A stretch of 34,789 bases of DNA from Gammaproteobacteria bacterium (lineage in GTDB: Bacteria; Pseudomonadota; Gammaproteobacteria; Pseudomonadales; M0112). Below the pieces are notes generated by a model that was not told where the DNA came from, made no database searches, and saw only the letters and a program-made list of their open reading frames with translations. How positions within the stretch are numbered: position 1 is the stretch's first letter; the number at the start of each line of letters is the position of its first letter. The position numbers were made by a program, and so were the translations under genes. The stretch is taken from the NCBI GenBank assembly GCA_006227085.1, contig SBFY01000188.1, positions 1 to 34,789 on the forward strand. The letters are read 5' to 3'. This document shows, piece by piece, positions 3,584 to 34,703 of this stretch.

Positions 3584-5557
3584 ATGCTGTATCGCCTGTT
3601 GCTGGCCTGCCTGATCGCAGGCACCACCCTGAATGCCGCCGCCGATGCCCCCATAGAGACCCCGTTAGCCGCCCCGGCCACACAGGATGCGGCAGCAGAG
3701 CGCCAGTACAGCGAAATCCGCACGCCTTGCCGCCAATACAACCCTTTGCGTAACGCCTATTTCGGCGACACCCATGTGCACACCTACCTGTCACTGGATG
3801 CCGGCCTGCAAGGCACCCGCACCACTCCGGATGAGGCCTACCGTTTTGCCCAAGGCGAGCCGATCGGCCTGCAACCCTGGACCGATGAAGGCAAACCCTT
3901 GCGCAGCTTGCAGCTGGCACGGCCACTGGATTTCGTGGCGCTGTCGGATCATTCCGAATTCCTCGGTGAACAACATATTTGCATGACACCCGGCAGCGAG
4001 GGTTATGACAGCTGGCAATGCGGCTTTTACCGTCGCTGGCCGTCAGTGGCGTTCATTTTCATGAACATGCGCACAGCCTGGTCAGCTGACCGCAACGCCG
4101 ACGGTGAGGCCCTGCCGATCCCGCGCTTCGGTTATTGCGGCAAGGATGGTGAAGTGTGCCGTGAAGCTGCCTCGCACGGTTGGCAGGAAATCCAGCAAGC
4201 TGCTGAACAGCATTACGATCGTTCCAGCGATTGCCAATTCACCACCTTTGTCGGCTACGAATGGTCAGGCGGCCCGAAAACCGAAAACCTGCACCGCAAT
4301 GTGATTTTCCGCAACAGCACCGTCACCGCACTGCCGGTCAGCTATCTCGACACCCCGGATCCGGAACAACTCTGGGCACGCCTGAAGCGCGAATGCCTCA
4401 CACCGGGCAAGGGCTGCGATGTGCTCGCCATCCCGCACAATTCCAATGTCAGCAATGGCCGCATGTTTGCGCTGACCGAAAGCAATGGCAAACCGTTCTC
4501 TGCCGAATACGTGCGCCTGCGACACGAGATGGAACCGCTGGTGGAGATCTTCCAGCACAAGGGTGATTCCGAGTGCGGCCTGATGAGCAGCGATGAGCAA
4601 TGCGGCTTTGAGAAAATGCCGTACAACAACCTGATTGCGGGACGTTATAACGGCTGGTTGACCGACAAGCCGAGTGAATCCGATTTCGTGCGCGATGCAC
4701 TGAAGCAAGGATTAAAGGTTGAGCAACAACTCGGCACCAACCCGTTCCAGTACGGCATCATCGCCAGCACGGACACTCACCTCGGCGCACCCGGCGCAGT
4801 CAGCGAAAGCAATTTCCCGGGTCACGGTGGTGCGGGTTACTCTGCCCGTGAAGGCATTCGCCCTGGCTTCCCAGACCCAGTCCTGTATAACCCCGGCGGC
4901 CTCGCGGTTGTCTATGCAGAAGAAAATTCACGCGACGCGCTGTTCAATGGCATGAAACGCCGCGAAACCTATGGCACCAGTGGTCCACGTATCGGCCTGC
5001 GTTTCTTCGCCGGCGAGAACTACCCGGAAGACCTGTGCAATAACGCAGACTTTGTCGCTACGGGTTATGCACAAGGCGTTCCCATGGGCAGCACATTACC
5101 TGCTCCCGCCAACAGCCCTGCGTTTGCCGTGGCCGCACAAGCCGATCCGGGCGCCAGCAACGAGCCGGGCATGCCCCTGCAACGCATCCAGATCATCAAG
5201 GGCTGGATCGACAACGGCATCGCCCATGAGAAAGTGTTCGAGGTGGCGGGCAATCCCGACAATGGCGCCACGGTTGACACCAACACCTGTGAACCGCAAG
5301 GAACCGGTGCCGCACAACTGTGTGCCGTATGGCGCGACCCGGATTTCAACCCGGCACAACCCGCGTTCTACTATGCCCGCGTACTGGAAAACCCGAGCTG
5401 CCGTTGGTCCGCACGCCAATGCGTGGCTGCCGGCGTGGATTGCAGCCAGCCGGATACTGTCTCCAAAGGTTATGAAGCCTGTTGCACAGCCGAGGCCCCG
5501 AAAATCATTCAGGAACGCGCCTGGAGCTCGCCGGTATGGGTCAGCCCAGCCCGCTGA
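3584..5557 (+). CDS. Secreted DUF3604-like protein (PHP-like metal-binding fold)
   Basis: Signal peptide plus YFGDTHVHT..SLDA, LDFVALSDHSE, NLHRNVIF, IPHNSN.S.G, EIFQHKGDSE, STDTH and a C-terminal QERAWSSPVW. Confidence 0.85.
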   Translation: MLYRLLLACLIAGTTLNAAADAPIETPLAAPATQDAAAERQYSEIRTPCRQYNPLRNAYFGDTHVHTYLSLDAGLQGTRTTPDEAYRFAQGEPIGLQPWTDEGKPLRSLQLARPLDFVALSDHSEFLGEQHICMTPGSEGYDSWQCGFYRRWPSVAFIFMNMRTAWSADRNADGEALPIPRFGYCGKDGEVCREAASHGWQEIQQAAEQHYDRSSDCQFTTFVGYEWSGGPKTENLHRNVIFRNSTVTALPVSYLDTPDPEQLWARLKRECLTPGKGCDVLAIPHNSNVSNGRMFALTESNGKPFSAEYVRLRHEMEPLVEIFQHKGDSECGLMSSDEQCGFEKMPYNNLIAGRYNGWLTDKPSESDFVRDALKQGLKVEQQLGTNPFQYGIIASTDTHLGAPGAVSESNFPGHGGAGYSAREGIRPGFPDPVLYNPGGLAVVYAEENSRDALFNGMKRRETYGTSGPRIGLRFFAGENYPEDLCNNADFVATGYAQGVPMGSTLPAPANSPAFAVAAQADPGASNEPGMPLQRIQIIKGWIDNGIAHEKVFEVAGNPDNGATVDTNTCEPQGTGAAQLCAVWRDPDFNPAQPAFYYARVLENPSCRWSARQCVAAGVDCSQPDTVSKGYEACCTAEAPKIIQERAWSSPVWVSPAR

Positions 5558-19399: not shown

Positions 19400-20037
19400 T
19401 GTGGCTGGATAACCTCCAACATTACCTGTACATCCTGTTCACCTTGCTGGTGATTGTGGATCCGCTCGCAGCGATTCCCTTGTTTATCCATTACACGGAC
19501 GGGCAAACCCGGCAAGAACAGCGACAGATCGCCAAGGTGTGCGCAGCAGCAGTTGGCACTGTACTGATCACCAGCATTTTCCTGGGCGATCCCTTGCTGC
19601 GCTTTTTCGGCATCAGCTTGTCGTCGTTCCGGGTTGGCGCAGGCATTTGCATCCTGTTGATGGCCATTGCCATGCTCAATGCACGTTTGGGCGGTGCACG
19701 CGCAACCCCGGAAGAAAAACTCGAAGCCGAAGACAAGGACAGCGTCGCGGTGGTACCACTGGCCATCCCGATATTGGCCGGGCCAGGTGCCATCAGTAGC
19801 ATGATTGTGTATTCACACTCATTGCATCACTGGTGGGAACTCGCTGTACTGACTGGCATTGCATTACTGATTGCAGGCAGCGTGGCAATCACCCTGTTCC
19901 TGGCGGAACCGATCGCCCGTCGCGTTGGCAAGACCGGCATCAACATCGCGACGCGCATCCTGGGCTTGATACTGATGGCTGTTGCCGTGGAATTCATGGC
20001 CACTGGCCTGCGGGATTTGTTCCCCGTCTTGCAATAA
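19399..20037 (+). CDS. MarC family inner membrane protein
   Basis: IVDPLAAIPLF, VVPLAIPILAGPGAIS, TRILGLIL. TAATG overlap with the USP gene. Confidence 0.92.
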   Translation: MWLDNLQHYLYILFTLLVIVDPLAAIPLFIHYTDGQTRQEQRQIAKVCAAAVGTVLITSIFLGDPLLRFFGISLSSFRVGAGICILLMAIAMLNARLGGARATPEEKLEAEDKDSVAVVPLAIPILAGPGAISSMIVYSHSLHHWWELAVLTGIALLIAGSVAITLFLAEPIARRVGKTGINIATRILGLILMAVAVEFMATGLRDLFPVLQ

Positions 20038-30475: not shown

Positions 30476-31390
30476 ATGAAACATGCCTCCCGCCAGAAAC
30501 TGTTCGACGCCCTGCAAAAGGTGGAAACCGCCGGCCTGCCGCCGGACAAGGCCATCGCCCTGCTGCCGGCCAGCGGCAGCTCGGAACAGGTACTGACGCT
30601 GACCGCCCTGCAAAAGCTGCTGAAGCAGGACATGACCCTGTCAGAAGCAGCCCTCAAGAGCGGCCTGTTCGAACCCCATGAAGTCGGCCTGATCCGCATC
30701 GGCGAGAAACGCGGCAAATTGCTGGAAACCTACAGCTGGCTGGCACGCCATTACGGCAACCTTAATGGCCGCTGGCAGGAACTGTATAGCGCCCTGCGAC
30801 TGCCATTGATCGTCTGGGTCGTTGGCACGGCATTCCTCAAGTTAATGGTATTAACCAAGGGCGGGATCGGTGCCGGTGGCTTCATCGGCCTGCTGCTGAT
30901 ACCCGTGGCCAGCCTGCTCGCTGCCCGGGGCTTTTACAGCCAGTACGCCAATCGCGCCCTGCCACCATGGGCGACGGAGCTGTTGCTGAAGATCCCCGGC
31001 TTGCGTGAACAGTTACGCCAATACCATGAAGCCGTGTTTTGCCATCACCTGGGCATCGCACTGGAGGCCGGCCTGCCACTGCCCGAAGCCGTGGGCATTG
31101 CCATTCATGGCATCGGCAACCCGCGCATCCGCGAATCCTTTGGCACCATCGAAAGCGCGGTGGAATCCGGCAGCACACTCAGTGACGCGGTGAGCTTCAG
31201 TGACGCCATCAGCCGCCCCGAAGGCACTACCGCTATCGGCACCGGTGAATCCACCGGAAAATTGCCGGAAGCACTCAGTAACTACGCACGCAAACTCGCC
31301 AATGCCAACGACAGCCAATGGGATGCCATTGCCAGTCGCGTGGCGCCACTTGCCTGGACGATCGTGATCCTGGTGTTACTGCTGGCGTAG
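30476..31390 (+). CDS. Type II secretion system F / PilC family platform protein (orphan)
   Basis: Two T2SSF-like repeats (AGLP...A, G.TLS.A, IGEKRGKL / TGESTGKLPEAL) separated by TM segments. Confidence 0.8.
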   Translation: MKHASRQKLFDALQKVETAGLPPDKAIALLPASGSSEQVLTLTALQKLLKQDMTLSEAALKSGLFEPHEVGLIRIGEKRGKLLETYSWLARHYGNLNGRWQELYSALRLPLIVWVVGTAFLKLMVLTKGGIGAGGFIGLLLIPVASLLAARGFYSQYANRALPPWATELLLKIPGLREQLRQYHEAVFCHHLGIALEAGLPLPEAVGIAIHGIGNPRIRESFGTIESAVESGSTLSDAVSFSDAISRPEGTTAIGTGESTGKLPEALSNYARKLANANDSQWDAIASRVAPLAWTIVILVLLLA

Positions 31391-31463
31391 GCGAGCCGGC
31401 ATTCCCAGCCATCTTCATTCGCAAACCAGCGGATGACTGTTCGCAACCCGATCGTGCTGGCAT

Positions 31464-31503
31464 AAAAAAACCGGGCTGGTAAGGAGACCTACCAACCCGG
31501 TTT
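31464..31503 (-). terminator. Intrinsic terminator (luxR and/or the candidate sRNA)
   Basis: CCGGGTTGGTA-GGTCTCCT-TACCAGCCCGG-TTTTTTT on the minus strand. Confidence 0.85.
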
Positions 31504-31535
31504 CAGGTTTGAGCGTACATGCCACTGTCACTCAT
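31464..31535 (-). ncRNA. Candidate quorum-sensing-induced small RNA (~72 nt) in the luxR 3' region
   Basis: Bounded by a lux-box/-10 promoter and a U7 terminator. The 5' hairpin UGAGUG-ACA/UGU-A-CGCUCA and the terminator stem each contain a G-U pair that only works on the minus strand. Confidence 0.55.
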
Positions 31536-31540
31536 GATTG

Positions 31541-31586
31541 ATTCTAGTCTCACATTGGCAACCTACAACTACCATGATTGGTAGCG
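31541..31586 (-). promoter_or_regulatory. lux-box-like site (31567-31586) plus -10 element TAGAAT (31541-31546)
   Basis: Minus strand CGCTACCAATCATGGTAGTT fits NNCT-N12-AGNN and is 16/20 identical to the box at 32511. Exactly 20 nt separate it from TAGAAT. Confidence 0.7.
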
Positions 31587-31626
31587 TCAGCCCGCATATG
31601 CAAGAAAAATTGCACTGGGTGTAAAA

Positions 31627-32475
31627 CTATTGGATCAATCGCAGTTCCTGCGCGATTTTTGCCAAGGCATGTCCGGATGCGCGCGGTTGTTTGAGAATGC
31701 GACGAACTTGCTTGAGATGGAAATGCACCGTTTCAGGTTCAACCCGCAAATCCCTGGCAACACTCTTGGCGGTTGCCGATGCACTGCGGGCAAAAATCCG
31801 CAACACATTAGCCTGCTTGTCTGTCAGCGTTAACCCATGCTCACCATCGACCGTGACGGATTTGATGCAGAAATCACAACCCAGCGTGTTATCGATGATG
31901 GCATCCATAATCACTGACAAGGCATACAAGCCCTTGTACACAGCATCCGTCACCTTGATTTCCGAGCGCCCCTCATTGGCACAGCTGATAAAAATGGCAT
32001 GGCTCTCGGAACCGAATGCGAAATAAACCCCATCATGCACACCATGCTGTTCAGCCAAGGCATACACCGAAAGGTACTTGTTTTTAAGGCTTTCATTAGT
32101 GGCCATGTCCAGGCTGGCCTGCAAGGCATCCCGCCAGGTGCCGTACCGCACCCGGCCATTCTCATGGCCCAACTGGCTCGCCAATAACACCGGGTCATGA
32201 TGGAAAAGTTTTTTCTCGCGGTAAGTTGCTTCCCAGTCTTTTGAGAAATTACTCATGGAATGACTGTAGGTGGCCAGTTTCAACTCGCCCAACAGATCCT
32301 CGCGCCAGAAAGTGAATCGCCCATAACGAAACCCCAACTGGTCAACCGCGCCGAAAAAGGCATCGCTGGCTCGCTGGATACAGCTCCGGCTCTGTTTCCC
32401 GCAATGACCCTGATGCAAGGGCAGCAAACTGACGATTCCCGCCAACGCGCCGTAATCAGGTCCCGGAGGATTCAT
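31627..32475 (-). CDS. LuxR-family regulator with an autoinducer-binding domain and a C-terminal HTH
   Basis: W...Y (DWEATY), DP (HDPV), W (GTW) and G (HDG) match AHL-pocket residues. LTDKQ..VL...TVHFHLKQV forms the HTH. Divergent from a luxI homolog; the exact start is uncertain. Confidence 0.85.
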   Translation of the reverse strand: MNPPGPDYGALAGIVSLLPLHQGHCGKQSRSCIQRASDAFFGAVDQLGFRYGRFTFWREDLLGELKLATYSHSMSNFSKDWEATYREKKLFHHDPVLLASQLGHENGRVRYGTWRDALQASLDMATNESLKNKYLSVYALAEQHGVHDGVYFAFGSESHAIFISCANEGRSEIKVTDAVYKGLYALSVIMDAIIDNTLGCDFCIKSVTVDGEHGLTLTDKQANVLRIFARSASATAKSVARDLRVEPETVHFHLKQVRRILKQPRASGHALAKIAQELRLIQ

Positions 32476-32510
32476 GGCATGTCTCGCTTATATAGTTATT
32501 TTGACTAACA

Positions 32511-32530
32511 AACTACCAAACATGATAGTT
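32511..32530 (+). promoter_or_regulatory. lux-box-like 20-bp imperfect palindrome between luxR and luxI
   Basis: AACTACCAAACATGATAGTT has 7 of 10 positions palindromic, fits CT-N12-AG, and ends 73 bp upstream of the luxI ATG. Confidence 0.75.
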
Positions 32531-32603
32531 ACTGCAATGTTGCCTTGGTGGTGTCATTCATTGGGTTTAACCACATGACTCACAACCAACAAGGAGACAC
32601 CAA

Positions 32604-33269
32604 ATGAGCGCTAAACATTATAGTGTGATTATCAATGCCGCCCCAAGCATTAATCCGGAACTCATGACCCGCTTCGGTCAGCTTCGCTACCAGTGCTTTG
32701 ATGCCAATGACCCCAATGTGAACATGGATCATTTCCGTCGCACTGAACTGGATCACTTTGACCGGATGGATGACACAACCTGCATCATGGTGATCGCAAC
32801 GGAAAATAGCCGCCAGGAACTGGTCAGCGCCATGCGCCTGCGTCCAACCACCAGTGACTACGAACTGGAAATGGATTCCTATCGCTACCTGACCGAAGGC
32901 GTTTCCCTGCCGAAAAGCAGCACTATCATGGAAGGCAGTCGCTGGGTAGGTCGCAGCAGCCGCACCCCTGAAGGCATGGTCAGCACCGGCATGCTGATGA
33001 ATGCGCTATACCGCTACTGTCTTACACTCGGTGTAAAAAATATCATTGGAACCATCTCGACCAAAAGCGAGCACTGGCTAGGGAAACGTGCAGCCTCTGC
33101 GCAGCGGGAGAGCAACCCGTATTACTCGCAACGCGATGACCTGACTATCATGATTTCAAACATCGCCCTTGACCAAACCTTCCTCCACGCGGCCAACCAT
33201 TTACTGAACCAGGGCCTCGGTCATTTCGACATCACCGAGCTTGAACTGGCCACGAAAAAAGCCGCATAA
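32604..33269 (+). CDS. LuxI-family acyl-homoserine-lactone synthase (atypical)
   Basis: LRYQCF, ELDHFD, SAMRLRPT and EGSRW match the LuxI R-F-E-D-D-R-E-S-R framework. AAGGAG RBS. Confidence 0.82.
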   Translation: MSAKHYSVIINAAPSINPELMTRFGQLRYQCFDANDPNVNMDHFRRTELDHFDRMDDTTCIMVIATENSRQELVSAMRLRPTTSDYELEMDSYRYLTEGVSLPKSSTIMEGSRWVGRSSRTPEGMVSTGMLMNALYRYCLTLGVKNIIGTISTKSEHWLGKRAASAQRESNPYYSQRDDLTIMISNIALDQTFLHAANHLLNQGLGHFDITELELATKKAA

Positions 33270-33275
33270 AAATAG

Positions 33276-33317
33276 CGGGAATAAAAAAACCGCCTGCGGG
33301 CGGTTTTTTTATTCCCG
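33276..33317. terminator. Bidirectional intrinsic terminator between luxI and the P450
   Basis: Perfect 19-bp inverted repeat CGGGAATAAAAAAACCGCC-TGCG-GGCGGTTTTTTTATTCCCG, giving a U7 tract on both strands. Confidence 0.92.
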
Positions 33318-33326
33318 GACCTTGGA

Positions 33327-34703
33327 TTAACGCAAGGCCAACTCGATCGGCATGTTGTCGGAAGGCTTCGGCAGCGGGAAGGTCTGCATGAACACATCCG
33401 GATCCTTGTGCTTCGCCACAAAGTCATACTTGAGCAGGAACTTGTGCAGGAAGCACTTGTACTCCATCTGCGAGAAATGCATGCCAATGCACTTGTGCGC
33501 ACCACCACCAAACGGGTGGAACTGGAAAGCATGCTTCTTGTGCTCGGAACGCTCGGGTGAGAAACGGTCCGGGTCGAACTTGAACGGCTCAGTCCAGTAT
33601 TCTTCCATCCAGTGGGTGAAGCGCGGCATGGTGAACACCATGGTATGCGCCGGCACTTTCACGCCCGCCATTTCCACTTCACGGATGGTACGGCGCGGCA
33701 CCGATGGCACCGACGGACGAATGCGCTGCACTTCATTGAACACTTGCTGCATGTACGGCACGCGGTCGAGGTCTTCGTAATCCAGCGTGTCCTTGCCGAG
33801 GGCCACGCATTCCTCATACAGCTTCTGCTTGATTTCGGGGTGACGCGCGAGGTAGTAAATCGTGTGCGTGATCGCTGCGGTGGTCGTGTCGTGTGCGGCA
33901 AACAACAGGAAGATCATCTGGTTGCGGATGTCTTCATCCGAGAAGTAATTGCCCTGCTCGTCTTTTTCACGACAGAAATGGCTCAGCATGTCCTTGCCAT
34001 CACCGGCGCGACGTTCCGGCACCAGCGCACCGATGCTGCTTTCGAGGAAATCACGCCCCTTCAAACCCTTGTGGTAGGCAAAACCCGGCAGGTTGATCGG
34101 CAGGATGTACATGATGCCATCCACGCAATCGATAAAGCCCTGGCTCAGCTTCTGCACCCGCTCGCCACGTTCCTGGATGCCGATGAACACCTCGGCTGCG
34201 ACTTCCAACAGCAGGTTCTTGATGTTCATGAAGAACTGGGTTTCCTGCCCGACGGAGGCCTGCCACTCATCCATGGCGCGGTCGTAAATACGGTTGATCT
34301 CTTTGGTGTAGTGCTTGAGCGATTCATTCTTGAAAGCGGTCTGGGCAATGCGGCGCTGGAACTTGTGGTGCTCGAAATCTTCCATGATCAGGCTGCCGCG
34401 GAAGAAGGTAGCGACCCGCTGGTGGAAGCCCATCTTGGAGGAAAAATCCTTGCCCGGATCCAGCATGATTTGCTGGGCCAGGTCCGGCCCAAGGCACAGC
34501 AGGCCCTTGGTGCCATAGGTGCTGACGCGGGAAATGGGGCCAAATTGCTTGTAGCGCTCCTGGGCGAAGGGCAGCGGGTCCTTCAGGTACTGGAAGCTGT
34601 GGCCAAAAAACGGCATACCCCAGTCACCCGGCAGGTGATCGAGCTTGGTGTTGTTCGGCTCGTGGATGTAATCGTCATAGTTGGTGACTTCAGGAGCGGC
34701 CAT
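33327..34703 (-). CDS. Cytochrome P450 (resembles CYP136-like enzymes; family not confirmed)
   Basis: I-helix FAAHDTT, EVQR (ExxR), FDPDRF and heme motif FGGGAHKCIG. Start placed at MAAPEV after GAAGG. Confidence 0.93.
   Translation of the reverse strand: MAAPEVTNYDDYIHEPNNTKLDHLPGDWGMPFFGHSFQYLKDPLPFAQERYKQFGPISRVSTYGTKGLLCLGPDLAQQIMLDPGKDFSSKMGFHQRVATFFRGSLIMEDFEHHKFQRRIAQTAFKNESLKHYTKEINRIYDRAMDEWQASVGQETQFFMNIKNLLLEVAAEVFIGIQERGERVQKLSQGFIDCVDGIMYILPINLPGFAYHKGLKGRDFLESSIGALVPERRAGDGKDMLSHFCREKDEQGNYFSDEDIRNQMIFLLFAAHDTTTAAITHTIYYLARHPEIKQKLYEECVALGKDTLDYEDLDRVPYMQQVFNEVQRIRPSVPSVPRRTIREVEMAGVKVPAHTMVFTMPRFTHWMEEYWTEPFKFDPDRFSPERSEHKKHAFQFHPFGGGAHKCIGMHFSQMEYKCFLHKFLLKYDFVAKHKDPDVFMQTFPLPKPSDNMPIELALR

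What the first reader, a model, noticed from the sequence alone, without database searches (positions are those of the whole stretch)
31481..32606. The candidate sRNA is complementary to the luxI ribosome-binding site: a possible built-in feedback brake
Seen in sequence: the sRNA terminator arm reads 5'-UUGGU-AG-GUCUCCUU-3' (31495-31481) and the luxI leader reads 5'-AAGGAGAC-ACCAA-AUG-3' (32590-32606). That gives 8 bp + 5 bp with a 2-nt bulge, covering the SD and spacer up to the start codon. The CUCC seed sits at the hairpin tip, and an A/C-rich tract (CACAACCAACAA) that could bind Hfq precedes the SD. Established: luxI/R pairs often carry a protein brake such as RsaL or RsaM, and none is visible here. 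Inference: an RNA fills that role (LuxR -> sRNA -| luxI). Caveat: anti-SD matches are partly generic (the hsp20 leader GAGGAGACC also matches), and the 5-bp extension requires opening the terminator stem.
Basis: inference. Interest (0 to 1): 0.8.

Follow-up and report, generated by a model that had tools for sequence, protein, structure and literature searches.

The report
luxR terminator hairpin matching luxI's ribosome site
The terminator hairpin behind a quorum-sensing regulator gene really is complementary to the ribosome-binding site of the neighbouring signal-synthase gene, but most of that match is locked inside the hairpin stem, so an RNA brake on signal production is possible and not shown.

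Summary
The sequence observation holds. AAGGAGAC-CT-ACCAA (31481-31495) and AAGGAGAC-ACCAA-ATG (32591-32606) both lie on the + strand, so a minus-strand RNA through the first would pair 8+5 bp with the luxI leader.

The hairpin (17-bp stem, UCUC loop, U7) is the only terminator behind luxR. It would also end a predicted ~73-nt RNA. That RNA would start from a second lux box, which is 15/18 identical to the luxI box and has no other close copy in the 2.2-Mb assembly. A TAGAAT -10 sits 21 nt behind the box.

Whether the match beats chance depends on the measure:
- By Watson-Crick pair count it is rare: 2/4000 random 73-mers, and 3/1840 leaders including luxI.
- By energy it is ordinary: 29/3000 random 73-mers, and luxI ranks about 125th to 368th of 1840.

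With accessibility counted, the 13-bp duplex is net +3.5 kcal/mol. Only a 7-bp loop/SD contact survives (-5.6), and about 300 leaders do better, including hsp20.

Covariation could not be tested, because no close homologue was reachable and no RNA runs were listed. None of 6 distant luxRI loci has such an element.

LuxR-controlled sRNAs that repress luxI are already known (YenS). Functional brake: about 0.3.

The parts
31467..31504 (-). Intrinsic terminator hairpin. 17-bp stem (G+C core 31500..31471), loop UCUC 31487..31484, U7 tail 31470..31464.
   Evidence: -30.3 kcal/mol, z -4.66, 0 of 200 shuffles fold as well. My own terminator scan also picks it up. The consensus scan missed it, probably because the stem extension uses up part of the U run.
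31481..31495 (-). Segment complementary to the luxI leader (5' arm, loop and first 3 nt of the 3' arm of the hairpin).
31463..31535 (-). Predicted ~73-nt transcript with a 5' hairpin, a short linker and the terminator. Its start is inferred from the -10 and is not mapped.
   Evidence: MFE -37.2 kcal/mol. No RNA run was available.
31541..31546 (-). -10-like hexamer TAGAAT, 21 nt downstream of box 2.
   Evidence: and the sequence. One search listed a different hexamer pair nearby (TTGCCA-16-AATCAT, 9/12).
31568..31585 (-). Second lux-box-like palindrome (box 2), between the luxR stop codon and the terminator.
   Evidence: 15/18 identical to box 1. The next best site in the genome has 4 mismatches.
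31627..32475 (-). luxR-type regulator gene, 282 aa.
   Evidence: Autoind_bind E 1.5e-9. GerE scores 19.2 bits, below its 23.5 cut-off. No sequence match in the PDB.
32512..32529 (+). lux-box-like palindrome upstream of luxI (box 1).
   Evidence: The same type of palindrome lies upstream of luxI in 7 of 7 related loci (L004-L010).
32581..32603 (+). luxI leader: A/C-rich tract 32581-32592, SD-containing AAGGAGAC 32591-32598, spacer ACCAA 32599-32603.
   Evidence: The SD strength of luxI ranks 279th of 1878 genes.
32604..33269 (+). luxI-type autoinducer synthase gene, 221 aa, from a rare and divergent family.
   Evidence: Autoind_synth 26.8 bits against a cut-off of 24; only 14 proteins found, the nearest 77% identical.
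33276..33317 (.). Bidirectional terminator between luxI and the convergent P450 gene. It marks the right end of the inserted cassette.

Best explanation
The hairpin at 31467-31504 is the intrinsic terminator of the minus-strand unit of a 1.95-kb luxR-luxI cassette inserted between a T2SS-F-like gene and a P450 gene.

The hairpin ends the luxR mRNA, since no other terminator lies behind luxR. Very probably it also ends a ~73-nt transcript that starts about 41 nt behind a second LuxR box. The RNA and its LuxR control are inferred, not shown.

The 8+5-bp complementarity to the luxI ribosome-binding site is real in the letters. In the folded RNA, however, 11 of its 15 nucleotides are paired in a 17-bp stem. 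What can actually meet the luxI leader is a 7-8-nt anti-Shine-Dalgarno loop contact. That contact is weak and is shared with hundreds of other leaders.

My reading is that this complementarity is not a specific brake on luxI. It is either fortuitous or at most a weak generic anti-SD contact. If the small RNA has a function, it lies elsewhere or is unknown.
For: **Terminator**
- The fold is -30.3 kcal/mol with z -4.66, followed by U7.
- No T-run hairpin lies between the luxR stop (31627) and box 2.

**Cassette**
- In the same-genus genome G001 the T2SS-F-like and P450 genes are adjacent.
- They are separated there by about 50 bp holding a different hairpin.

**Promoter**
- Box 2 is 15/18 identical to box 1 and has no other close copy in the genome.
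- TAGAAT lies 21 nt downstream of it.

**Energetics**
- The 13-bp duplex gives -15.6, against opening costs of 16.3 (RNA) and 2.8 (leader).
- The best accessible contact is 7 bp at -5.56.
- A two-strand partition function gives -3.0 kcal/mol, and its MFE dimer does not use the SD pairing.
- Only an RNA lacking the 3' arm pairs as proposed, at -13.4.

**Ranking**
- 308 of 1840 or 292 of 1759 leaders score better with accessibility.
- 124 of 1840 score better for arm plus loop by hybrid energy alone, and 367 of 1840 for the whole RNA.

**Relatives**
- 0 of 6 related loci with a complete luxR have 11 or more pairs to their own luxI leader in the stretch behind luxR.
- Cognate pairs are no better than non-cognate ones.
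Against: - By Watson-Crick pair count the match is rare: 2 of 4000 random 73-mers, and luxI is one of only 3 of 1840 leaders with 13 pairs.
- AAGGAGAC lies in the 20 nt before the start codon of only 6 of 1840 leaders. The word pair with a gap of up to 3 nt occurs only at these two sites in the genome.
- Only 2 of 492 terminator-like hairpins contain CUCCUU.
- The match covers exactly the SD-to-start region of the one gene a LuxR-driven RNA would be expected to control, and such a circuit exists in Yersinia.
- Hfq is encoded in the genome and the RNA has a U7 tail, so protein-assisted opening cannot be excluded.
- My gene calls and interaction model are home-made approximations of prodigal and IntaRNA.
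- The related loci are distant (42-63% LuxI identity), so their lack of the element says little.
Confidence: 0.45

Rival explanations
1. Functional RNA brake. LuxR bound at box 2 drives the ~73-nt RNA. The luxR mRNA 3' end carries the same hairpin. The anti-SD loop nucleates on the luxI SD, pairing then spreads into the 5' arm, possibly with Hfq, and translation of luxI is blocked. If this LuxR is active without signal, as YenR is, the logic would instead be repression at low cell density that is relieved by signal.
For: - Pair-count rarity: 2/4000 random 73-mers and top 3 of 1840 leaders.
- Only 6 of 491 other terminator-like hairpins match the leader as well by energy.
- Box 2 and the -10 are as expected for a LuxR-dependent promoter.
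- Hfq is present and the RNA has a U7 tail.
- The nascent RNA without its 3' arm binds at -13.4 kcal/mol in the proposed register.
- Precedents: YenS (review passages) and RcsR1-sinI (abstract).
- No Pfam-recognisable extra ORF lies in the cassette (0 of 6).
Against: - Net energy is +3.5 kcal/mol for the full duplex and -5.6 for the loop contact, and about 300 leaders score better.
- The hsp20 leader scores better than luxI.
- The seed lies in a 17-bp terminator stem with a 4-nt loop.
- The A/C tract holds only two consecutive A-R-N triplets (read), so the Hfq-site claim is weak.
- There is no conservation in distant loci.
Confidence: 0.3
2. There is no regulatory RNA at all. Box 2 is a LuxR site with a DNA-level role, such as a decoy, a roadblock at the end of luxR, or the leftover promoter of a gene lost when the cassette moved. 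The hairpin is simply luxR's terminator.
For: - Related loci carry extra boxes that precede ordinary genes. L008 has a box at 1079 before a second luxR-like gene, and L005 has a box at 5543 before an 854-aa ORF.
- The cassette is an insertion.
- No Rfam family matches: the best hits here are 21.6 bits against a threshold of 40, and 20.5 against 50.
Against: - The -10 TAGAAT sits at the same distance from box 2 (21 nt) as the candidate -10 does from box 1 (21-22 nt).
- In one strain contig both differences fall in the 41-nt spacer (31592, 31612) and none in box 2, the -10 or the RNA body. This is one contig at depth 3, so it is weak evidence.
Confidence: 0.2
3. The short transcript is a leaderless mRNA for a 10-codon micro-ORF (31535..31503), not a base-pairing RNA.
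For: The predicted start (6-8 nt behind TAGAAT) falls on an ATG that opens a 10-codon frame ending in TGA inside the hairpin's 5' flank.
Against: The start is not mapped. The frame is tiny and has no relatives to compare. An ATG within a 3-nt window is expected in roughly 5% of cases (my estimate).
Confidence: 0.05

Closest known systems
YenR / YenS / yenI of Yersinia enterocolitica (Tsai and Winans 2011). I read only passages of two reviews, PMC3493969 and PMC4773443. A similar RNA in Pantoea stewartii (Schu et al. 2009) is cited there.
   Same: A LuxR-type protein activates a small RNA gene that sits beside the luxR/luxI pair. That RNA inhibits translation of the synthase mRNA and promotes its decay.
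   Different: - YenS is 105 and 165-169 nt; this RNA would be about 73 nt.
- Sequence homology was not tested, because I held no YenS sequence.
- YenR acts at low signal. Whether this LuxR acts with or without signal is unknown.
- Here the complementary part lies in the terminator hairpin, and the RNA would share its 3' end with the luxR mRNA.
- Nothing here is shown experimentally.
RcsR1 sRNA and sinI mRNA of Sinorhizobium meliloti (PMC4962803; abstract and outline read)
   Same: A trans-acting sRNA pairs with the 5'-UTR of an autoinducer-synthase mRNA through a stem-loop, impairs translation and lowers the signal.
   Different: RcsR1 is stress-controlled, not density-controlled, is encoded elsewhere, and is Hfq-independent (a section heading in the outline). 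A sub-threshold Rfam RcsR1 hit in the window (15.3 bits against 60, at 33283-33355) lies at the other terminator and is chance.
Ordinary intrinsic terminator shared by a gene and a 3'-end-derived small RNA with its own promoter (a class recalled from the enterobacterial sRNA literature, not looked up here)
   Same: A promoter lies just behind or inside the 3' end of a gene, and both transcripts use the gene's terminator, a hairpin with a long U tail.
   Different: In the known cases the seed lies upstream of the terminator in single-stranded RNA. Here the only long complementarity found to luxI lies inside the terminator.
C-rich hairpin loops that pair with SD sequences, as in Staphylococcus aureus RNAIII (recalled, not looked up)
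   Same: An anti-SD motif presented by a hairpin, including a terminator hairpin, contacts the ribosome-binding site of a target.
   Different: Those loops are larger and often make loop-loop contacts. Here the predicted loop is 4 nt and the organism is a Gram-negative of the order Pseudomonadales. The order is taken from the record titles of the related loci, not from this genome.

Membership tests
LuxR-controlled sRNA repressing its cognate luxI (YenS type) | Small RNA gene located beside the luxR/luxI pair | tested here: met
   The candidate lies 92-164 nt behind the luxR stop codon, inside the same 1.95-kb cassette.
LuxR-controlled sRNA repressing its cognate luxI (YenS type) | LuxR-type binding site at its promoter | tested here: met
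   Box 2 is 15/18 identical to the luxI box, has no other close copy in the 2.2-Mb assembly, and has TAGAAT 21 nt behind it. This is sequence evidence only; binding is not shown.
LuxR-controlled sRNA repressing its cognate luxI (YenS type) | A discrete transcript exists | not testable with these tools
   No RNA run was listed. The runs laid were DNA contigs.
LuxR-controlled sRNA repressing its cognate luxI (YenS type) | Specific pairing with the luxI mRNA that blocks translation | tested here: inconclusive
   Rare by pair count (2/4000; top 3 of 1840). Unfavourable or generic by energy (+3.5 and -5.6 kcal/mol; about 300 leaders better).
LuxR-controlled sRNA repressing its cognate luxI (YenS type) | Sequence or structure homology to a described RNA family | tested here: not met
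   Rfam 15 at E <= 10 gave only sub-threshold hits over the hairpin: P31 at 21.6 bits against 40, and atoC at 20.5 against 50. I do not know whether YenS has an Rfam model.
Intrinsic (factor-independent) terminator | G+C-rich stem-loop directly followed by a U run, downstream of a gene on the same strand | tested here: met
   17-bp stem, U7, 124 nt behind the luxR stop codon.
Hfq-dependent base-pairing sRNA | Terminator hairpin with a long U tail, and Hfq encoded in the genome | tested here: met
   U7 tail. An Hfq match of 105.6 bits, over the cut-off, at C15:1265-1450.
Hfq-dependent base-pairing sRNA | Accessible single-stranded seed complementary to the target | tested here: not met
   Opening the 15-nt segment costs 16.3 kcal/mol. 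Only about 7 nt around the loop open cheaply, at 3.2 kcal/mol.
lux-box type LuxR operator | 18-20-bp dyad upstream of luxI, conserved in kind across related loci | tested here: met
   A palindrome of the CTAC/CTAT-N8-GTAG/ATAG type lies upstream of luxI in the window and in 7 of 7 related loci.
lux-box type LuxR operator | Centre near -42.5 from the transcription start (position recalled from the Vibrio fischeri literature) | tested here: inconclusive
   The box 2 centre is 41.5-43.5 nt from the start predicted from TAGAAT. The start is not mapped.

The most novel reading that the evidence does not exclude
A self-contained 1.95-kb mobile quorum-sensing cassette carries its own RNA brake. LuxR drives a ~73-nt RNA whose terminator hairpin doubles as the antisense element against the luxI ribosome-binding site. 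Because the luxR mRNA ends in the same hairpin, the regulator's own mRNA would also pair with the synthase mRNA. This would be a YenS-like circuit that evolved independently, in its smallest possible form, in an uncultured freshwater-sediment bacterium.
Probability: 0.27. Interest if true: 0.6.

Novelty: new variant of a known kind. Interest (0 to 1): 0.35.

Why it matters
If the pairing works, two things would follow. RNA brakes on acyl-homoserine-lactone synthases would be shown to arise repeatedly beside luxR/luxI pairs, not only in Yersinia and Pantoea. And a terminator hairpin would be shown to serve as the antisense element, with the regulator's mRNA 3' end sharing it.

If it does not work, the case is a useful caution. 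A striking 13-bp anti-SD match can sit in a place where it cannot act, and pair counts and energy ranks can disagree by two orders of magnitude.

The firmer result is separate from the pairing question. A second, near-identical LuxR box with a well-placed -10 lies behind luxR in a cassette that a sister species lacks.

Tried and rejected
**Closed, busy or failed calls**
- The look-up of sequencing runs was busy at first. The same request answered later and listed no RNA holder.
- My first ranking script timed out.
- The second ranking was flawed. Its suboptimal-duplex window excluded short duplexes and gave luxI a score of 0. I discarded it for the seed-and-extend version.

**Strain contigs**
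- Contigs from four runs were laid on 31380-32720. Only 2 of the 4 (X2, X3) reach the hairpin or the leader, and they are identical there, so they offer no covariation.

**Covariation across homologues**
- The LuxI family is tiny: 14 proteins.
- The only close relative (77%) is known as a protein alone. The tool that fetches its contig is closed, so I did not call it.
- Genome and metagenome scans gave 7 loci at 45-63% identity.
- A 400-genome sample of the order gave nothing closer than 49%.
- The same-genus genome lacks luxI with this query.

**Distant loci**
- Cognate luxR-downstream against luxI-leader pairing: 52, 190, 306, 67 and 135 of 500 shuffles do as well.
- The window's own RNA region pairs better with the L005 leader (-18.3) than with its own (-16.4).

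**Other**
- A duplication of the luxI promoter-leader was rejected as the source of the repeat. The order of box and SD word is reversed, and the similarity stops at the 13 letters.
- A plus-strand promoter from box 2, which would be antisense to luxR, was rejected. I saw no acceptable -10 at 21 +/- 2 nt.
- The LuxR protein has no PDB sequence match.
Full report
**What is in the window**

Positions 32604-33269 (+) encode a divergent LuxI-type synthase (Pfam Autoind_synth, 26.8 bits against a cut-off of 24). Positions 31627-32475 (-) encode a LuxR-type regulator (Autoind_bind E 1.5e-9; GerE is below its cut-off). The flanking genes are a T2SS protein-F-like gene (30476-31390, +) and a cytochrome P450 gene (33327-34742, -).

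The same-genus genome G001 has the T2SS-F-like and P450 genes side by side. About 50 bp and a different hairpin lie between them, and no luxI was found there with this query. So luxR, luxI and both flanking hairpins form a ~1.95-kb insertion. The hairpin in question therefore came with the cassette and is not the old terminator of the neighbouring gene.

**The observation**

The two words are present as described, with the leader coordinates shifted by one base:
- AAGGAGAC 31481-31488, CT, ACCAA 31491-31495
- AAGGAGAC 32591-32598, ACCAA 32599-32603, ATG 32604

Both lie on the + strand, so only a minus-strand RNA through the first site is complementary to the luxI mRNA.

On the minus strand the first site lies in a hairpin with a 17-bp stem, a UCUC loop and a U7 tail (-30.3 kcal/mol, z -4.66, 0 of 200 shuffles as good). 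I saw no other terminator between the luxR stop codon and this hairpin. So the luxR mRNA should end here as well.

**A second LuxR box**

Every related locus has a palindrome of one type upstream of luxI: 7 of 7 loci, L004-L010, plus the window. In the window it is at 32512-32529.

A second copy, 15/18 identical, lies at 31585..31568 behind luxR. No other site in the 2.2-Mb assembly comes within 3 mismatches of either box, and the next best has 4.

TAGAAT follows box 2 after exactly 21 nt (31546..31541). The best -10 candidate behind box 1 (TGTCAT, 32552-32557) follows after 22 nt, read. With a start near 31535 the box centre would be about 42 nt upstream. As I recall from the Vibrio fischeri literature, that is the usual place for a LuxR-activated promoter.

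This supports a LuxR-dependent RNA of about 73 nt (31535..31463). It is still an inference, for three reasons:
- No RNA run was listed.
- Rfam has no match at threshold.
- The start is not mapped.

One strain contig differs from the window only at 31592 and 31612. Both positions are in the spacer between the luxR stop codon and box 2 (depth 3, weak).

**Is the complementarity more than chance?**

The answer depends on the measure.

| Measure | Test | Result |
|---|---|---|
| Watson-Crick pairs (13; two exact blocks, bulge up to 2 nt) | random genomic 73-mers against the luxI leader | 2 of 4000 |
| Watson-Crick pairs | gene leaders against the RNA | 3 of 1840, luxI included |
| Exact word AAGGAGAC in the 20 nt before the start | gene leaders | 6 of 1840 |
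| Local hybrid energy (-16.4 or better) | random genomic 73-mers | 29 of 3000 |
| Local hybrid energy | dinucleotide shuffles of the RNA | 92 of 3000 |
| Local hybrid energy | dinucleotide shuffles of the leader | 106 of 3000 |
| Local hybrid energy | terminator-like hairpins of this genome | 7 of 492, this one included |

On hybrid energy alone, 124 of 1840 leaders beat luxI for the arm-plus-loop part of the RNA, and 367 of 1840 beat it for the whole RNA. G+C-rich leaders easily form stronger duplexes than this A/U-rich one.

Scanning whole related loci shows that 13-14-pair matches to a leader do turn up by chance within a few kilobases. One such match lies 3.4 kb away in L005.

**Can the pairing form?**

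The 15-nt segment covers 8 nt of the 5' arm, the 4-nt loop and 3 nt of the 3' arm.

| Contact | Duplex | Cost to open RNA | Cost to open leader | Net (kcal/mol) |
|---|---|---|---|---|
| Full 13-bp duplex | -15.6 | 16.3 | 2.8 | +3.5 |
| 8-bp SD duplex | -10.8 | 5.6 | 2.6 | -2.6 |
| Best accessible, 7 bp at the loop | -11.3 | 3.2 | 2.6 | -5.6 |

(All.)

A two-strand partition function gives only -3.0 kcal/mol, and its best dimer does not use the SD at all. An RNA cut before the 3' arm binds at -13.4 in the proposed register. So the extension into ACCAA would need the terminator to be held open.

**Genome-wide rank**

I made rough gene calls (1878 genes) and chose start codons in two ways. I then scored each leader with a seed-and-extend hybrid energy plus opening energies, an approximation of IntaRNA.

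- 308 of 1840 leaders score better than luxI, or 292 of 1759 with the other start rule.
- Among leaders whose best site is this loop, 37 of 349 (or 29 of 278) score better.
- These include the Hsp20 gene of the same window, at -8.8.

**Relatives**

The LuxI family is rare. Only 14 proteins were found, the closest 77% identical and known only as a protein. Loci that could be fetched are 42-63% identical. Some of the loci repeat earlier ones.

- In 0 of 6 loci with a complete luxR is there a match of 11 or more pairs to the cognate leader behind luxR.
- Cognate pairs are not better than non-cognate ones.
- Extra boxes in those loci precede ordinary genes.

At this distance, absence is weak evidence. 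The informative comparison, with the 77% relative, could not be made.

**What is known**

A LuxR-type protein that activates a neighbouring small RNA, which then inhibits translation and stability of the luxI-type mRNA, is described for YenR/YenS/yenI. A similar RNA is reported in Pantoea stewartii. For both I read only passages of two reviews, not the primary papers.

RcsR1 pairs with the sinI 5'-UTR in Sinorhizobium (abstract).

A search for papers combining small RNA, lux box, luxI, negative feedback and base-pairing listed 4 papers. None of their titles or abstract openings describes a terminator-borne anti-luxI element (listing only). Supplements were not available.

**Verdict**

The letters are right and the match is unusual by count. 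The idea that LuxR drives a small RNA here is reasonable.

The specific claim, that the terminator arm pairs with the luxI ribosome-binding site as a brake, is not supported by energetics or by ranking, and could not be tested by covariation or expression.

| Reading | Odds |
|---|---|
| Terminator, plus a likely LuxR-driven RNA, whose match to luxI has no specific role | about 0.45 |
| A working brake | about 0.3 |
| No RNA function at all | about 0.2 |
| A leaderless micro-ORF | about 0.05 |

If real, it would be a new variant of the YenS kind, not a new kind.

Noticed in passing
window 31391-33326; L011 (G001:C8, about 30600-30705): luxR, luxI, box 2 and both hairpins form a ~1.95-kb insertion. 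In the same-genus genome the T2SS-F-like and P450 genes are adjacent, with about 50 bp and a different hairpin between them.
   Followed up: yes
window 31535..31503 (-): The predicted start of the small RNA falls on an ATG that opens a 10-codon frame (MSDSGMYAQT, then stop). A leaderless micro-ORF is conceivable.
   Followed up: no
window 32501-32529 (+): A sigma-70-like pair (TTGACT, 17 nt, GATAGT; 9/12) has its -10 inside box 1. LuxR at box 1 could therefore repress a basal luxI promoter as well as, or instead of, activating a downstream one. Whether this LuxR works with or without signal is open.
   Followed up: no
L005 4988 and 5543; L008 1079; L010 1632: Related luxRI loci carry additional palindromes of the same box type next to the cassette. 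Some precede ordinary genes, such as a second luxR-like gene in L008 and an 854-aa ORF in L005.
   Followed up: partly
genome contig C180, start codon at 19670 (+); window 31529..31517 (-): The top predicted target of the small RNA is a gene whose start region is complementary over 13 contiguous pairs to the RNA's 5' hairpin (-25.3 hybrid, -15.4 net). Several other top hits share ATGCCACTG at the start codon. By my rough estimate a 12-mer match is expected about 0.3 times in this search, so it may be chance.
   Followed up: no
window 31592 and 31612: One strain contig from another metagenome differs from the window only at these two places in 31458-31788. Both are in the spacer between the luxR stop codon and box 2 (depth about 3).
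   Followed up: no
window 32604-33269: This LuxI belongs to a very small, divergent family. A search of 5.8 billion proteins found 14, barely above the Pfam threshold, and the FeeM N-acyl amino acid synthase model also scores (21.9 bits, below its cut-off). The product need not be a standard acyl-homoserine lactone.
   Followed up: no
window 31391-31510 (+): On the + strand the hairpin is followed only by TTTCAGGTTT, so it is a poor terminator for the T2SS-F-like gene. Read-through from that gene would run antisense to the small RNA and to luxR.
   Followed up: no
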